Origin: Octopus vulgaris
Lineage: Eukaryota
DNA length: 64,000 nucleotides
Direction: 5' to 3'
Assembly (NCBI GenBank): GCA_951406725.2
Contig: OX597817.1
Coordinates: forward strand, 86,614,001 to 86,678,000
A program made the position numbers and the translations under genes. Of the stretch, positions 1-60,116 are shown piece after piece. Below the pieces are notes generated by a model. The model was not told the origin of the DNA and did no database searches. It worked only from the letters and a program-made list of their open reading frames with translations. How positions within the stretch are numbered: the first letter of the stretch is position 1; the number at the start of each line of letters is the position of its first letter.

Positions 1-1052
1 GTGGGTGTGTGCGTGTGTTTCTCGTTCTTTTCTGTTTCAAGAAAAAATTATTTTATTATATTTTATATCTTTATTGATGTTCATTTTTTTTCTTCTTCCT
101 CATCTTCATATTCAGAAAAAAAATAATAATAATAATGGCAAAGAAAAGCAAGGAATTTTTCATTTTGACTCTTATCGAGATATGTGTTCTTTAAAAACGG
201 CAGTGTTAAGGGATAAAAGCCTTGACATCAAGGTTCACATTTGACAGAAAAAAAATGTTAGCCTTCTTTTCTTTTTGCTTGCATATCCTGCTCCACCTAA
301 CTATTTGACATTCAACACAACGCCACTCGCTCTCGCAAGCATGGGGGCGGCGGTAATAATATGATGGCAGTGGTGATGATGATGATGATGATGATGGGAT
401 ATGTTGGTGGCAGTGATGGTGGGAGCACGAGCAGAGCGGGAAAGATCGGAGTAGGGGCCTTTGAAATGGGGGTGGAGAGTTTAAGATGAAAATATCGATA
501 AATACGTCAATTTCAAATATACCAAAAAGCTTGTTGGCATACAATTCTCTTTCTCTCTTTCTCTCCCTCACTCTCTATCTTTATCGCTCTCTCTTTCTTT
601 CTCTACATACACGCACACAAGCTCACACACACACACATGCTATATGTACGTATATATATATATATATATATATATATATATACATATACACACACTCACA
701 TATATATGAGTATATTTGATATATATGTATGTAAGCTATGTCCATGTATACATGCATGTTACAAGTATGTATGTTTGTATGTGTGTATTTGTATATACAT
801 CTGCATCTTGCTTTGTGTGCATATGGAGGAGTTGAATATGCACACATACAAATGTTTGTGTCTCTATGCATATGCATGCACATATATGCATACATGTGTG
901 TGTACGTATGTGTGTTTGTATATATATATATATATATATATATATATATATATATATATATATATATATATATATATATATATATTATATTTTATTATAT
1001 AGAAGGAGCTTCTACAGGACTAGAACTGTTTCATTCAAGAGAAATCTTCAGG

Positions 1053-1702
1053 TCGCTACACCTGTAGCTAAAATCTTCTTCACTCTCCTACAGAAACACT
1101 TCCCCACCCAACATAAGTACTACACTATCCTAAATAAGAACACTATTAGACTCTCCTACTCTACCACGCCCAATCTAGCCAGGAACCTAGCCAACAACAA
1201 TGTGAAAAAACTTAACATATCTACTTTTTCCGAGGCCCATCCAACGTCCGATAGCAATTGCAACTGCCCTGATAAAACCACCTGCCCCCTCAACAACAAC
1301 TGCCTACAGAGGGACCTAGTATATACATGCGAGGTAAGATCAGGCCCTGACGATAAAAGAAAATCCTACATCGGAATGACGTCAAACAGCTTTAAGACAC
1401 GTTGGTACGCACACACACACTCGTTCCGGCGACCGGATAAATCCAACCAAACTACCCTCGCCGCCCACATCTGGTACCTTAAAAGGAACTCCATCCCCTT
1501 CAAGACCAAGTGGAAACTACTACAGAAGGCGCGTTCGTACACAGGAGGCCATACCTGCTGTGACCTTTGCATTTCGGAGAGCCTAGAGATCTTGTTCGCC
1601 AAAGGCCCTCTCCTTAACAAGATCTCAGAACACTCCCCAAATTGCATGCATAAGAATTATGCAAACTACAAGAACTATAGACCTACCCGGCAACCAGATT
1701 AA
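1053..1702 (+). pseudogene. PLE C-terminal region: RT thumb/linker, CxCx5Cx5C zinc motif and GIY-YIG endonuclease (uninterrupted frame, 5'-truncated, no RT core)
   Basis: Real part of ORF 866-1702: KHFP..NKNTIRLSYS, CNCPDKTTCPLNNNC, LVY..YIG, FKTRW..H, TTLAAHIW, CDLC..E. The N-terminal YIYI part is microsatellite. Confidence 0.9.
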
Positions 1703-1779
1703 TGACACCCCACCCACAAACCCCCCCCAATCCCACTGTTCCCCTAGCACCCCCGACTACCTTTTCTCCTAAGACCTTT

Positions 1780-4700
1780 CACATATTGTATGTGCACGCT
1801 TGTATATGTGTATCGTATATATGTATAGAAATGTATGGGTATAGTAGGAATATACGCATGTATTATGTGTGTGTGTGTGTGTATGTATGTAAAAAAATAT
1901 ATTTATATGTATGTGTGTGTGTGTGTGTGTGTGTGTGTGTGTGTGTGTATATGTATATATGTATATATGTGTGTATGCATATGTATGTGTATTTGTATGT
2001 GTGTATGTATGTGTATGTATATATAAAATATTATATAATTAGGGCTTAGTAAAATAAATTACTTTGCCACATACTGAACTTTCTAGAAATAGCAGCCAAA
2101 TAAGTTTTTTAGCCTTTTCCACTACTTAAAGAAAATTTTCTCTCAGACAATGTTTACTCAAAAAAATAATGGTCCTTTTACATACTGAATACTTGGTGAA
2201 ATTGATTAATAACTAATTAACTTTACCCTCAATTGTTGATATATATATATATATATATATATATATATATATATATATATATATATATATATATATATAT
2301 ATATATATATGTATATGTATGTGTATGTGTGTGTGTGTATATATATGTATATATGTATATATGTGTGCGTGTGTATATATATATATTTATTTTTATATAT
2401 ATATGTATATATATGTATATATATGTATATATATGTGTATGTGTATATATATATATATATATATATATATATATGAGTGTACGCGAGTATGTCGATGTAT
2501 ATGTAGGTATGTAGAGTTATGTGTATGTGCATGTATGTGTGTGTATATACAGATTGTAGATGGGTATATATATGTGTGTGTATATATACATATATATATG
2601 TATATATATGTGTGTGTGTATATATATATATATATATATATATATATATGTATATGTGGGTATGTAGAGTTATACGTATGTGCATGTGTATATGTATATG
2701 TATATTATATGTATGTGTATGTGTATGTATGTACATAGATGTGTGTGTGTGTGTATGTGTGTATATGTATGTATATATGTATATATGTGTGAATGTGTAG
2801 GTGTGGGTATATATATATGTGTGTGTGTATGTATATATATATATGTATATATGTATATATGTATATATATATATATATATATGTGTGTGTATATGTATAT
2901 GTATATATATATATATATATATGTGAATATGTGTGTGTATGTGTACATATGTGTATGTGTGTATATATATGTGTGTATATGTATGTATATATATATATAT
3001 ATTTATATGTATGTATATATATATATATATATATATATATGTGTGTGTGTGTAAGTGTGTGTATATATGTATATGTAAGTGTGTGAGTGTGTATGAGTAT
3101 GTATGTATGTTTGCACACATGTATATGTATATATATATATATATATATGTATGTGTATATGTGTGTGTATGTATGTGTGTATGTATATGTATGTGTGTGT
3201 GTGTATATATGTATGTGTGTGTGTGTATGTGTGTATATGTATATGTATGTGTATGTATGTGTATATGTATATATATGTATATGTGTATATATATATATAT
3301 ATATGTGTGTGTGTATGTGTATGTGTGTGTATGTATATGTATGTATATATGTGTGTATGTGTGTATGTGTATATATATATATATATATATATATATATAT
3401 GTATATATATATATATATATATGTATATATGCGTGTATGTATATGTATGTATGTATATATATGTGTGTGTATGTGTATGTGTATATGTACATATACGTGT
3501 ACGCTCGTGTGTTTAGGTATATGTAGGTACGTAGAGTTATGTGTATGTGTGTATGTATATGTACATATGTGTAAGTATGTGTATATATATATATATATAT
3601 ATATATGTATATATATATATATATATATATATATATATATATATATATATGTGTGTGTGTGTGTGTGTGTGTGTAAGTTTATATGTATGTATCCGTCTGT
3701 ATAATAGGTAACTGCACGTGTATATATACTTAATATTTATTATTTATTATTTATTATTTATTTTTTGAGTATGCATGTATGAATAACTGCATGTATATAT
3801 ATTTTATTACTTATTTTTGAGTATGCATGTAAGTATGAACATAAGGAGTGGCGTGTGTGTGTGTGTATGTGTAAGCATAGATATATGTATACATTTACGC
3901 ATGTGTGTACTTATGTGTATATATGGATGCGCGTGTGTGTGTGTGTGTGTATGGGTACGCATGTATATGTGCATGTGCGTGTATGTGTATATGTGTATGT
4001 ATGTGTGTGTGTATATATGTATATGTATGTATGTATATGTATGTATGTGTATATATATATATATATATATATATATATATATATGTATGTATGTATATGT
4101 ATATGTGTATGTGTATGTATTTGTATGTGTATGCATGCGCGTATATGTATGTATATGTATACGTGTAGGTGTGTGTATGTGTGTATATATGTATGTATGT
4201 ATGGGTGTATGTATGTATGTATGTATGTATGTATGCGGATATGTATATATATATATATATATGTGTGTGTGTATGTGTATGTATATGTGTGTGTATATAA
4301 ATGTATGTATGTATTTGTATGTAGGTGTATATGTATGTGTGTATATATATTTATTGGTGTATATGTATAGACTAGTCTTCTAAGATTGTAGACATGAATC
4401 TGTAGGTACGCGTACGTATGTGTATATACGTGTATGTATATAGATGTATGTATGTATGAATATAACGCGTGCGTGCGTGTATGTGTATGAGTGTACGAAT
4501 GAGTGAGTGTGCGTGCTAATGAGTGTGCGTGCGTGAGTGAGTGCTTGTGCTCAAGTAGAAAGATAAAAGGGACTAGCTGTCGTAGCCAAGATGCTTGTGA
4601 CCAGCGGTCAAAGATAACAAAAGTAATAAATGAAGATAATAAAATTAAAATTAGGGAATGGGTTTGTATTTGTATGTATATATATGTGTGTATGTGTAGG

Positions 4701-5140
4701 TATGAATAGGTACACATATGTATGTATATATATATATATATATATATGTATATATACATATATGTGTATATGTATATATGAGTATATAGGGACTTGTGTG
4801 TTGTGTGTGCATGTGTGTATGTGGATATATGTGTGTGTATGTGTGTATGTGTATGTGTGTGTATGTATATAATTTTTTTGTGTGTATGTGTATGTGTGGT
4901 CGTGTGTGTGTATATATACATGTGTGTGTGTATATGTATATGCATGTATATGTGTATGTATATATATATATACATATATATATATATTTATATGTAGATA
5001 TGTGTATGTATATGTATGTGTGTATATATATATATATATATATATATATATATATATATATGGGTGTGTGTGTATGTATGTGTGTATGTATATGTGTGTG
5101 TGTGTGTATATATATGTATACATATGTGTATAGGTATAAG
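1780..5140. repeat. 3.4-kb compound (TA)/(TG)/(TATG) microsatellite field inside the PLE
   Basis: Seen directly; a few unique islands (2037-2237, 4550-4660). Confidence 0.95.
2037..2237. repeat. pLTR-like repeat fragment inserted in (TA)n
   Basis: Shares the AAATAGCAGCC motif and AGGG/CCCT ends with fragments at 6521-6810 and 48910-49200. Confidence 0.45.
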
Positions 5141-59168: not shown

Positions 59169-59589
59169 AGGCATCGGAGTGACTGTGTGGAAAGTAGCTT
59201 GCTTACCAACAACATGGTTCCGGGTTCAGTCCCACTGCGTGGCACCTTGGGCAAGTGTCTTCTACTATAAACTGGGGCCGACCACAGCCTTGTGAGCGGA
59301 TTTGGAAGACAGAAACTGAAAGAAGCCCGTCGTATATATGTATATATGTATGTGTGTATATGCTTGTGTGTGTATATGCTTGTGTGTCTGTGTTTGTCCC
59401 CCAACATCGCTTGACAACCGATGCTGGTGTGTTTACGACCCCGTCACTTAGCGGTTCGGCAAAAGAGACCGATAGAATAAGTATTAGGGCTTACAAAGAA
59501 TAAATCCTGGTGTAGATTTGCTCGACTAAAGGCGGTGCTCCAGCATGGTCACAGTCAAATTACTGAAGCAAGTAAAAGAGTAAAAGAGA
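59169..59589 (+). mobile_element. SINE family A, full length
   Basis: Runs from head to AAAAGAGTAAAAGAG tail. Confidence 0.9.
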
Positions 59590-59642
59590 ATTTTTTTTAT
59601 TGTGGGAAAGAAATGTTTCGATGCAGAAAATAAAGCAAATCT

Positions 59643-59890
59643 CTTACTTTTTATCTTTTATTTGTTTCATTCATTGGACTGCAGCAATGCTAAGGTAATG
59701 CCTTGAAGGATTTAAAGGAACGAATCGACCCCATATTACATATATTTTTAGCCTTGTATTTATTCTATCGTTGTCTTAGCCGAACCGCTAAGTTAGGGGA
59801 GTGTAAACATACCAGCACCAGACGTCGAGCGGTTGTAGAGGGACAAATACAAACACACACACACGCACACAAACACGAATATATATATAT
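59643..59890 (-). mobile_element. SINE family A 3' part, diverged
   Basis: GCCGAACCGCTAAGTTAGGGG..GTAAACA. Confidence 0.65.
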
Positions 59891-60078
59891 ATATATATAT
59901 AGTGGCGATGTATGTATGTGTGTATGTTTGTGTGCATGGCTGTGTGGTAACAACCTTGCTTCCCAACCACATATATATATAACGGGAAAGTTTACGAAAA
60001 TAAACAAAAGACGAAGGCAGGTGGAGTACAAACAAACAAATGTATTAGTATAGCGCTCAGGAATAGAAATAGAAAAAG

Positions 60079-60116
60079 TCTTTTACGTTTCGAGCCTACG
60101 CTCTTCGACAGAAAGA
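60079..60116 (-). ncRNA. Ultra-minimal hammerhead-like motif with CUGUCGA core
   Basis: Reverse complement: TCTTT-CTGTCGA-aGAGCgtagGCTC-GAAA-CG-TA-AAAGA. Confidence 0.65.

What the first reader, a model, noticed from the sequence alone, without database searches (positions are those of the whole stretch)
991..60116. About one hammerhead ribozyme per 5 kb, from many unrelated small non-coding families
Seen: about 12 type I HHR folds at 5362+, 20989-, 43441+, 45572-, 49142-, 50465+, 53420+, 54721-, 55731+, 56557+, 57126- and 60079-. Half-motifs occur at 991-1052, ~6580, ~21466, ~27484, ~48390 and 56070. Stem sequences differ between copies while pairing is kept. Stem III is usually a palindrome (CCATGG, TCCGGA, CATATG, CGCG, CCGG, CATG, CCGTACGG, CG). 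Established: PLE pLTRs and animal non-LTR retrozymes carry minimal type I HHRs whose palindromic stem III supports dimeric cleavage. Inference: this genome hosts a diverse, probably unannotated set of ribozyme-processed non-autonomous retroelements mobilised in trans by PLE RT/GIY-YIG, possibly through circular RNAs.
Basis: partly seen in the sequence, partly recalled or inferred. Interest (0 to 1): 0.85.

Follow-up and report, generated by a model that had tools for sequence, protein, structure and literature searches.

The report
Penelope-element hammerheads and tandem retrozymes
The window holds twelve hammerhead-ribozyme motifs, half of them damaged, that are the end pieces of Penelope-type jumping genes and of short protein-free repeats likely copied by those genes' enzymes; this arrangement is known from other animals, and the bare motif shows an excess of about 92,000 copies in this likely octopus genome.

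Summary
The observation mostly holds. All 12 sites belong to dispersed repeat families; 11 majority sequences fold as type I minimal hammerheads (one has a weak helix I). Only 6 window copies pass my descriptor (0.09 in shuffles). Genome-wide the two-box core occurs 130,511 times against 38,506 for the reversed pattern (one excess copy per 30 kb), so the window is locally rich. The reading 'non-coding families' is partly right. Four families are ends of protein-coding Penelope-like elements (three Hydra clade, one Neptune-like). Five are 340-500-bp protein-free head-to-tail units (non-LTR retrozymes). Three are unresolved. A young 359-bp family found outside the window forms arrays with the inverted head, one-sided tail and TA target of Penelope insertions. 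All of this is a known kind (Cervera 2014, 2020; Craig 2021; Li 2026), and this scan met hammerhead-bearing Penelope ends in other genomes. Not found in print: cephalopod retrozymes, and a U4C core fixed in a young Hydra family with an intact ORF (34 of 37 copies). Cleavage and circles are untested.

The parts
991..1058 (-). Inverted, truncated pLTR piece of family F5368 at the 5' end of a Hydra-clade PLE insertion; hammerhead core present, 5' strand of helix I missing
1034..1702 (+). 5'-truncated Hydra-clade PLE ORF: end of RT, CxCx5C linker, GIY-YIG-type endonuclease
   Evidence: 32% identical over 180 aa to the intact 717-aa ORF of L205, E 3e-31; motifs read
1703..5340 (+). Microsatellite-swollen 3' untranslated region between that ORF and its hammerhead (link inferred)
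5362..5412 (+). Hammerhead F5368, canonical core, U.U at base of helix II, 4-bp helix III; pLTR of the Hydra element; predicted cut after 5406
6558..6600 (+). 3' half motif, diverged relative of F55737 (bounds approximate)
20989..21041 (-). Hammerhead F21033; core intact, 3' strand of helix I replaced by flank; ~340-370-bp non-coding unit
21150..21490 (+). Inverted head copy of the F21033 element, ending inside helix II
27463..27520 (-). Decayed hammerhead of a further old family (bounds approximate)
43439..43481 (+). Old hammerhead F43445, weak helix I, parent unresolved
45568..45662 (-). Hammerhead F45653, long helix II, CATATG; 3' end of a coding Hydra-type PLE
48350..48400 (-). 3' half motif with Hydra-type short helix III (bounds approximate)
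49142..49199 (-). Hammerhead F49193, canonical core, TCCGGA; within a ~500-bp non-coding unit (48890-49309 in the window)
50464..50509 (+). Hammerhead F50470, G12A in this copy; short element 50444-50621
53420..53464 (+). Hammerhead F53426, family core U4C, this copy also G8A; ~350-bp non-coding unit (53318-53672) with extended helix I
54719..54773 (-). Hammerhead F54756, G8U in this copy; ~480-500-bp non-coding unit
55337..55960 (+). F55737 element, 1.3 units of a ~470-bp non-coding monomer; hammerhead at 55731-55799 with C3U core
56065..56284 (+). Fold-back truncated F5368 end (two opposed 3' half motifs plus pLTR tail)
56557..56619 (+). Hammerhead F56563 with U4C core; pLTR of a young coding Hydra PLE
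57126..57188 (-). Decayed hammerhead F57182 (element 56861-57296), parent unresolved
60079..60116 (-). Hammerhead F60111 with A6U core; 3' end of a coding Neptune-like PLE (element 59971-60168)

Best explanation
The motifs are type I minimal hammerheads lying in the terminal repeats of Penelope-like retroelements and of short protein-free head-to-tail repeats that are likely copied by the Penelope reverse transcriptase and endonuclease. Shown: four families sit behind PLE coding sequence; five form 340-500-bp tandem monomers with no PLE ORF found; insertions have a fixed 3' end, a ragged 5' end, often an inverted head copy, and in several families a (TA)n target. Inferred: a tandem transcript carries two or more hammerheads whose palindromic helix III pairs between neighbours; the dimer cuts out unit-length RNA, which may be ligated to a circle; PLE RT copies the unit for more than one round from a nick in (TA)n, giving partial tandems. 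Because the hammerhead lies within about 100-300 bp of the 3' end, nearly every truncated insertion keeps it, which explains the density; most copies are solitary and decaying.
For: Coding link: F56563 hammerhead downstream of the endonuclease in 28 of 30 endonuclease-selected loci, and a 2.94-kb element with two direct pLTRs and an inverted head (L159); F60111 hammerhead downstream in 6 of 6 endonuclease-selected loci, one being the query's own; F45653 with PLE protein hits upstream in 6 of 14 loci, 5 of them endonuclease; F5368 behind the window's own ORF, with a 98%-identical endonuclease in the inverted head of L025. The intact 717-aa ORF has RWK, DKT, CxCx5C, CxxC and CxH, the Hydra marks of PMC8557442. 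Tandem periods: F53426 340-360 bp in 13 of 20 loci, F21033 320-380 in 5 of 14, F49193 500-540 in 5 of 14 (two are one insertion), F55737 460-480 in 4 of 14, F54756 480-500 in 2 of 12. Inverted copy upstream in 74 of 158 loci, only downstream in 11 (six insertions are counted twice). L206: 359-bp unit, five hammerheads in tandem plus two in an inverted head, in (TA)n; 2,366 candidates genome-wide, 94-100% alike among the full-length matches, with a recurring 45-bp tail; circular fold z = -5.0. Cofolding two copies of 49193 gives the dimeric hammerhead with intermolecular helix III, 12.7 kcal/mol better than two monomers. Genome-wide excess of 92,005 two-box cores over the reversed control.
Against: No cleavage, strand or circle data. 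Only PLE proteins of two clades were used as queries on 1.5-kb flanks, so coding parents of the five 'non-coding' families are not excluded. For F5368 no endonuclease lay upstream on the same strand within the flank in 0 of 14 loci; the link rests on the window and L025. (TA)n enrichment past the 3' end is clear in 6 of 11 families tested but absent in F53426, F21033, F50470 and F57182 and weak in F45653. In cofolding, 4 of 6 motifs did not give the palindrome-paired dimer as the lowest-energy form, and 9 of 11 family stretches showed no unusual folding energy (z above -2; 10 of 11 counting F21033 at -1.5 and those at -1.9 as unremarkable). Li et al. saw cleavage in only 1 of 9 dimer elements tested.
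Confidence: 0.85

Rival explanations
1. All families are merely truncated pLTRs of coding PLEs; the tandem units arose by local duplication or template jumps and are not self-propagating elements.
For: True for 4 of 12 families. Most copies are monomers or partial. The 139-bp F50470 trimer was seen at one locus only. Earlier notes on other genomes reached this reading.
Against: The same period and junction recur at many unlinked loci (13 of 20 for F53426); the 359-bp family has arrays on several contigs, 94-100% alike, with constant period and tail.
Confidence: 0.12
2. The hammerhead fold is kept as a structure for RT binding or RNA dimerisation; cleavage is slow or dispensable in many families.
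For: U4C in 34 of 37 hammerheads behind endonuclease-selected Hydra copies, including the copy with an intact 717-aa ORF; U at position 6 in 6 of 6 Neptune-like copies; C3U without G8A in 13 of 14 F55737 copies (query-biased). U4C lowers activity considerably in vitro and changes at A6 gave low activity (PMC3088659 passages). Naiad PLEs spread without canonical hammerheads.
Against: U4C still supports viroid infectivity. 28 of 35 cluster representatives have a canonical CUGANGA core (selected by a descriptor that allows one mismatch). This reading is compatible with the best explanation and concerns only the role of the motif.
Confidence: 0.25
3. Chance matches in AT-rich, repeat-rich DNA.
For: Half of the sites fail the descriptor; one cluster of my own library (c32) was a false positive.
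Against: 6 versus 0.09 in shuffles; 130,511 versus 38,506 genome-wide; family majority lines restore the pairing lost in window copies.
Confidence: 0.01

Closest known systems
Minimal hammerheads in pLTRs of metazoan PLEs (Cervera and De la Pena 2014, PMC4209133; parts 1-2 of 4 read)
   Same: Type I, short helix I, extra nucleotide after A9, palindromic helix III, many sequence families per genome, mostly solitary copies or opposed pairs 100-700 bp apart
   Different: Counts reported there are 2,000-9,000 per genome; here an excess of about 92,000 by a different, looser method. U4C, A6U and uncompensated C3U were not in the parts I read; its supplements were not seen.
Hydra-clade PLEs (Craig et al. 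2021, PMC8557442; passages, section 11 and supplement part 2 read), including Hydra-1_Obim from an octopus
   Same: Under 3 kb, single ORF with RWK, DKT, CxCx5C, CxxC, CxH; (TA)n target; inverted 5' copy; hammerheads with a mismatch at the base of helix II and a 3-4-bp helix III with a 1-3-nt loop, as listed in its File S2
   Different: None of the Hydra hammerheads listed in File S2 has U4C; here a very abundant young family does. pLTRs are present here (L159), whereas Hydra-1_Obim is listed without.
Non-LTR retrozymes of animals (Cervera and de la Pena 2020, PMC7229834, parts 2-3 of 6 read; Li, Clavereau and Pollet 2026, 10.64898/2026.07.22.740005, parts 1-3 of 5 read)
   Same: Protein-free tandem units of a few hundred bp with one type I hammerhead each, self-paired fold, co-occurring with PLEs, proposed to be non-autonomous PLE derivatives
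   Different: No cephalopod among the species named in the parts read; here the arrays show PLE insertion marks directly (inverted head, one-sided tail, TA target); circles are not shown here.
Small hammerhead variants of PLEs that cleave as dimers (Lunse, Weinberg and Breaker, RNA Biol 14:1499)
   Same: Short or palindromic helix III, dimer cleavage, link to PLEs (known to me from the review PMC6765202, and from recall)
   Different: Paper not held; I cannot tell whether it already covers octopus sequences or these core variants.

Membership tests
Type I (minimal) hammerhead ribozyme | CUGANGA and GAAA...UH boxes in type I order with helices I-III | tested here: met
   Met in 11 of 12 family majority lines, with one core change in four of them; F43445 has a weak helix I; 6 of 12 window copies pass the descriptor
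Type I (minimal) hammerhead ribozyme | Palindromic or very short helix III allowing dimers | tested here: met
   27 of 35 cluster representatives have a perfect palindrome, 17 different ones (the descriptor favours them); dimer fold predicted for 49193
Type I (minimal) hammerhead ribozyme | Self-cleavage 3' of H17 | not testable with these tools
   Only contigs were available; no read ends
Hydra-clade PLE | Single ORF, RT then C-terminal GIY-YIG-type endonuclease; RWK, DKT, CxCx5C, CxxC, CxH | tested here: met
   717-aa ORF of L205 read directly against PMC8557442; the window ORF has CxCx5C, CxxC, CxH. Pfam gives no hit for the 717-aa ORF and a sub-threshold GIY-YIG hit for the F45653 piece.
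Hydra-clade PLE | pLTRs in partial tandem, inverted 5' copy, length under 3 kb, (TA)n target | tested here: met
   L159, 2.94 kb between pLTR hammerheads; (TA)5 past the 3' end in 12 of 14 F56563 and 14 of 14 F5368 loci versus 4.5 and 6.5 in control windows
Hydra-clade PLE | Placement in an RT tree with reference Hydra proteins | not tested
   No named reference proteins were held as sequences; likeness to Hydra-1_Obim judged by eye
Neptune/Nematis-type PLE (F60111) | RT thumb, Cx2-5CxxC linker, GIY-YIG endonuclease upstream of the hammerhead | tested here: inconclusive
   Seen across frames of a broken copy; Pfam GIY-YIG E 0.0022, below cut-off; link to the hammerhead 6 of 6; clade not placed by a tree
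Non-LTR retrozyme | Head-to-tail units of about 150-500 bp, each with a type I hammerhead, no ORF | tested here: met
   L206 family; periods for five window families. In the window itself no two complete hammerheads are in tandem.
Non-LTR retrozyme | Strongly self-paired monomer | tested here: inconclusive
   z = -5.0 for the L206 circle and -6.2 for F53426; between -1.5 and +1.0 for F21033, F49193, F55737, F54756
Non-LTR retrozyme | Expressed as linear and circular unit-length RNA | tested here: inconclusive
   One 390-nt contig of run X2 closes on itself with period 360; a tandem transcript or DNA gives the same, and the run's RNA status is a guess

The most novel reading that the evidence does not exclude
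This genome carries well over 100,000 hammerhead-derived motifs, among the densest loads in any animal, including young, still-spreading retrozymes, and some of its most successful Penelope families amplify with catalytically weakened cores (U4C, A6U, C3U), meaning the hammerhead serves these elements as an RNA structure for dimerisation or RT loading more than as a nuclease.
Probability: 0.22. Interest if true: 0.7.

Novelty: new member of a known kind. Interest (0 to 1): 0.38.

Why it matters
The kind is known, so the surprise is modest. Two things are useful. First, a young 359-bp retrozyme with near-identical arrays and the full Penelope insertion signature, in a genome with intact Hydra ORFs, is a clean test bed for the proposal that PLE enzymes move retrozymes. 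Second, the role of the PLE hammerhead is called unclear in PMC8557442; a young autonomous family fixed for U4C, beside canonical families in the same genome, makes 'does it need to cut?' directly testable. A recent curated octopus repeat annotation (PMC13282606, part 1 of 3 read plus term search) does not mention ribozymes in its main text and lists many unclassified SINEs, so some of these families may be misfiled there, if this genome is that species or a relative.

Tried and rejected
Rfam: no hammerhead at gathering score; the E-value list shown is filled with microsatellite matches to microRNA models. Pfam and PDB did not recognise the 717-aa ORF; 928 unnamed homologues exist. My first label 'Neptune' for F5368, F56563 and F45653 was dropped for Hydra after reading the motifs. 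An endonuclease 1 kb upstream of F49193 in L069 was rejected as a neighbouring element, since the inverted head lies between. The reversed control for the U4C pattern (161,247 versus 50,157 real) is unusable, probably inflated by a repeat; no excess is claimed from it. In the profile search I dropped cluster c32 (6 of 23 window rows, 8 of 33 sample rows; a non-hammerhead repeat) and c20 (1 row each; doubtful); window density from that search is not comparable, because the window's families are in the library. Lower substitution in core than flank (54/1606 versus 672/7576) was not used: hits were chosen by likeness to the core region, and the F55737 core was mis-registered by the script. Variety of base pairs across clusters is partly by construction. 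Runs found for 53300-53800 held at most 0.11 of its words and are no evidence by themselves. The systematic sample is only 230 kb. No earlier notes exist for this genome or for the F53426 sequence. Searches for print: 'hammerhead+Penelope+octopus', 'hammerhead ribozyme+octopus', 'retrozyme+cephalopod', core variants; none showed a cephalopod retrozyme or a PLE U4C family, but subscription papers, bioRxiv supplements and the Lunse paper were not visible.

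
Full report
Setting. The window is G000:C4:86614001-86678000, in a 2.80-Gb genome of 227 contigs, 35% G+C and full of microsatellites. I infer an octopus from size, about 30 large contigs, a C2H2 zinc-finger array in a fetched locus and the likeness, by eye, of its PLE protein to Hydra-1_Obim. 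No host exon was recognised among 10 window ORFs scanned; three are Tc1/mariner pieces.

Observation. All 12 coordinates and the eight palindromes are right. Rfam misses them. A strict type I descriptor passes 2 sites, none in 20 shuffles. A relaxed one, adjusted after seeing the sites, passes 6 at score 9 or more, against 0.09 in 100 shuffles and 0 in the reversed window. Each site has relatives elsewhere in the genome (candidates 891, 283, 6, 2,589, 1,038, 2,862, 243, 56, 973, 309, 36, 291 in window order). In the alignments the majority line restores the fold where the window copy has decayed, in 11 of 12 families; F43445 keeps a weak helix I. Three window copies are canonical, three have a damaged helix I, three carry a family-wide core variant and three a private core substitution. 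The six half-motifs are truncated, inverted or decayed members of such families.

Density. The pattern CTGANGA-N(8-36)-GAAAC occurs 130,511 times in G000 and its reversed control 38,506 times: an excess of 92,005, one per 30 kb. It leaves out long loops, U at 15.2 and variant cores. The U4C pattern occurs 50,157 times, with an unusable control. In 23 systematically placed 10-kb samples the descriptor gave 10 hits from 3 insertions, against 0.4 in shuffles. Family profiles found 24 hammerhead-derived pieces in 19 of those samples after dropping 9 rows, one per 8 kb, or about 15 insertions. So one per 5 kb is a local high that counts decayed copies. A few families dominate: by my reading 20 of the first 100 listed matches are one family. 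For comparison, papers report over 6,000 motifs in a coral, about 5,000 in a mussel and 126,247 in the axolotl, by other methods.

Coding families. The window's ORF at 1034-1702 ends in a GIY-YIG-type endonuclease, 32% identical over 180 aa to an intact 717-aa ORF at L205. That ORF has RWK, DKT, CxCx5C, CxxC and CxH, which define the Hydra clade. A search with its endonuclease gave 23,297 candidates. The F56563 hammerhead follows the endonuclease in 28 of 30 such loci, and L159 is a 2.94-kb element with two direct pLTRs and an inverted head. F45653 has PLE protein hits upstream in 6 of 14 loci. F5368 is tied to the window ORF by position, by its inverted piece at 991-1058 and by L025; no same-strand endonuclease lay within 1.5 kb in 14 loci, as expected if the untranslated region is long. 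F60111 follows a Neptune-like RT thumb, linker and endonuclease in 6 of 6 loci (29,194 candidates).

Non-coding families. Same-strand repeats at a constant period mark circularly permuted monomers: about 350 bp (F53426, 13 of 20 loci), 320-380 (F21033, 5 of 14), about 500 (F49193, 5 of 14), 460-480 (F55737, 4 of 14), 480-500 (F54756, 2 of 12) (junctions read). No linked PLE ORF was found with the queries at hand. F50470 forms a 139-bp trimer at one locus; F57182 and F43445 stay open. A systematic sample hit a further family: L206 holds a 359-bp unit with five hammerheads in tandem and two in an inverted head, flanked by (TA)n. It has 2,366 candidates, arrays on several contigs and a recurring 45-bp tail, the arrangement drawn for PLEs in PMC8557442. 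Its circle folds with z = -5.0; F53426 has a long extended helix I (z = -6.2); four other non-coding families do not stand out. Across the 12 families an inverted copy lies upstream in 74 of 158 loci and only downstream in 11.

Mechanism. Shown: the anatomy above. Inferred from PMC4209133, PMC7229834 and PMC6765202: tandem transcripts let neighbouring hammerheads pair through palindromic helix III and cut; unit RNA may circularise; PLE RT copies more than one unit into a nick made by the endonuclease. Cofolding gives this dimer for 49193 and, less cleanly, 56563, but not as the best form for 4 of 6 motifs. Expression evidence is thin: contigs of four runs of guessed RNA cover the 359-bp unit in 9, 28, 30 and 14 of 30 bins, and one 390-nt contig of a related unit closes on itself with period 360; a circle, a multimer or DNA would all give this.

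Core variants. Extra bases on both sides of the foot of helix II (U.U, A.A and others; 13 of 35 representatives) are already listed for Hydra elements (File S2) and U.U for other hammerheads. U4C is not in that list. It is present in 34 of 37 hammerheads from loci chosen by protein, not by the motif, including the copy with the intact ORF, and in the majority lines of F53426 and F21033. Position 6 is U in 6 of 6 Neptune-like copies. U4C lowers activity in vitro yet supports viroid infectivity, so these families may cut slowly or not need to.

Comparison and verdict. PLE pLTR hammerheads, their many families and opposed pairs (PMC4209133), octopus Hydra elements with hammerheads (PMC8557442), animal retrozymes (PMC7229834) and their PLE origin (Li et al. 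2026) are in print, and this scan noted similar ends in other genomes. Cephalopod retrozymes and a U4C PLE family were not found; the Lunse paper, bioRxiv supplements and the supplements of the two Cervera papers were not seen and may bear on this. Verdict: real, new members of a known kind, interest 0.38.

Noticed in passing
L206:2098-4770 (G000:C1:20002098-20004770): Young 359-bp hammerhead retrozyme array with inverted head and one-sided tail in (TA)n; 2,366 candidates genome-wide; best substrate for bench tests.
   Followed up: yes
L205:1390-3543: Intact 717-aa Hydra-clade PLE ORF whose pLTR hammerhead has U4C; two subfamilies with 180-280 and 680-770 bp between ORF end and hammerhead.
   Followed up: partly
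window 48586-48677 (-): Repeat with CUGAUGA and a distant GAAA but no clear helix III (cluster c20); may be a half-core PLE end.
   Followed up: partly
window 1703-5340: About 3.6 kb of microsatellite inside the 3' untranslated region of a young Hydra element; such elements may seed or carry the genome's microsatellites.
   Followed up: no
window 46479-47069 (-), 60485-60889 (-), 25950-26339 (-): Tc1/mariner transposase fragments.
   Followed up: no
window 15829-16443, 23068-23518, 37718-38217, 47496-48098, 59164-59590, 62634-63206 and others: Very abundant 400-600-bp SINE-like repeat, at least ten copies in the window, some in inverted pairs.
   Followed up: no
window 35902-36842: 180-bp inverted repeat pair 81% alike, of an abundant repeat also seen in several loci; not a hammerhead.
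   Followed up: no
   Followed up: partly
F49193 (L073) and F57182 (L140), 150 bp upstream of the hammerhead: Shared short motif and TATA-like runs upstream of several non-coding units; possible internal promoter.
   Followed up: no
L161:6408-8001 (-): Long C2H2 zinc-finger array next to Hydra insertions on contig C27.
   Followed up: no
window 39850-40000, 59121-59214/60291-60384: 72-bp tandem pair 98% alike and a 94-bp direct repeat 99% alike 1.17 kb apart.
   Followed up: no
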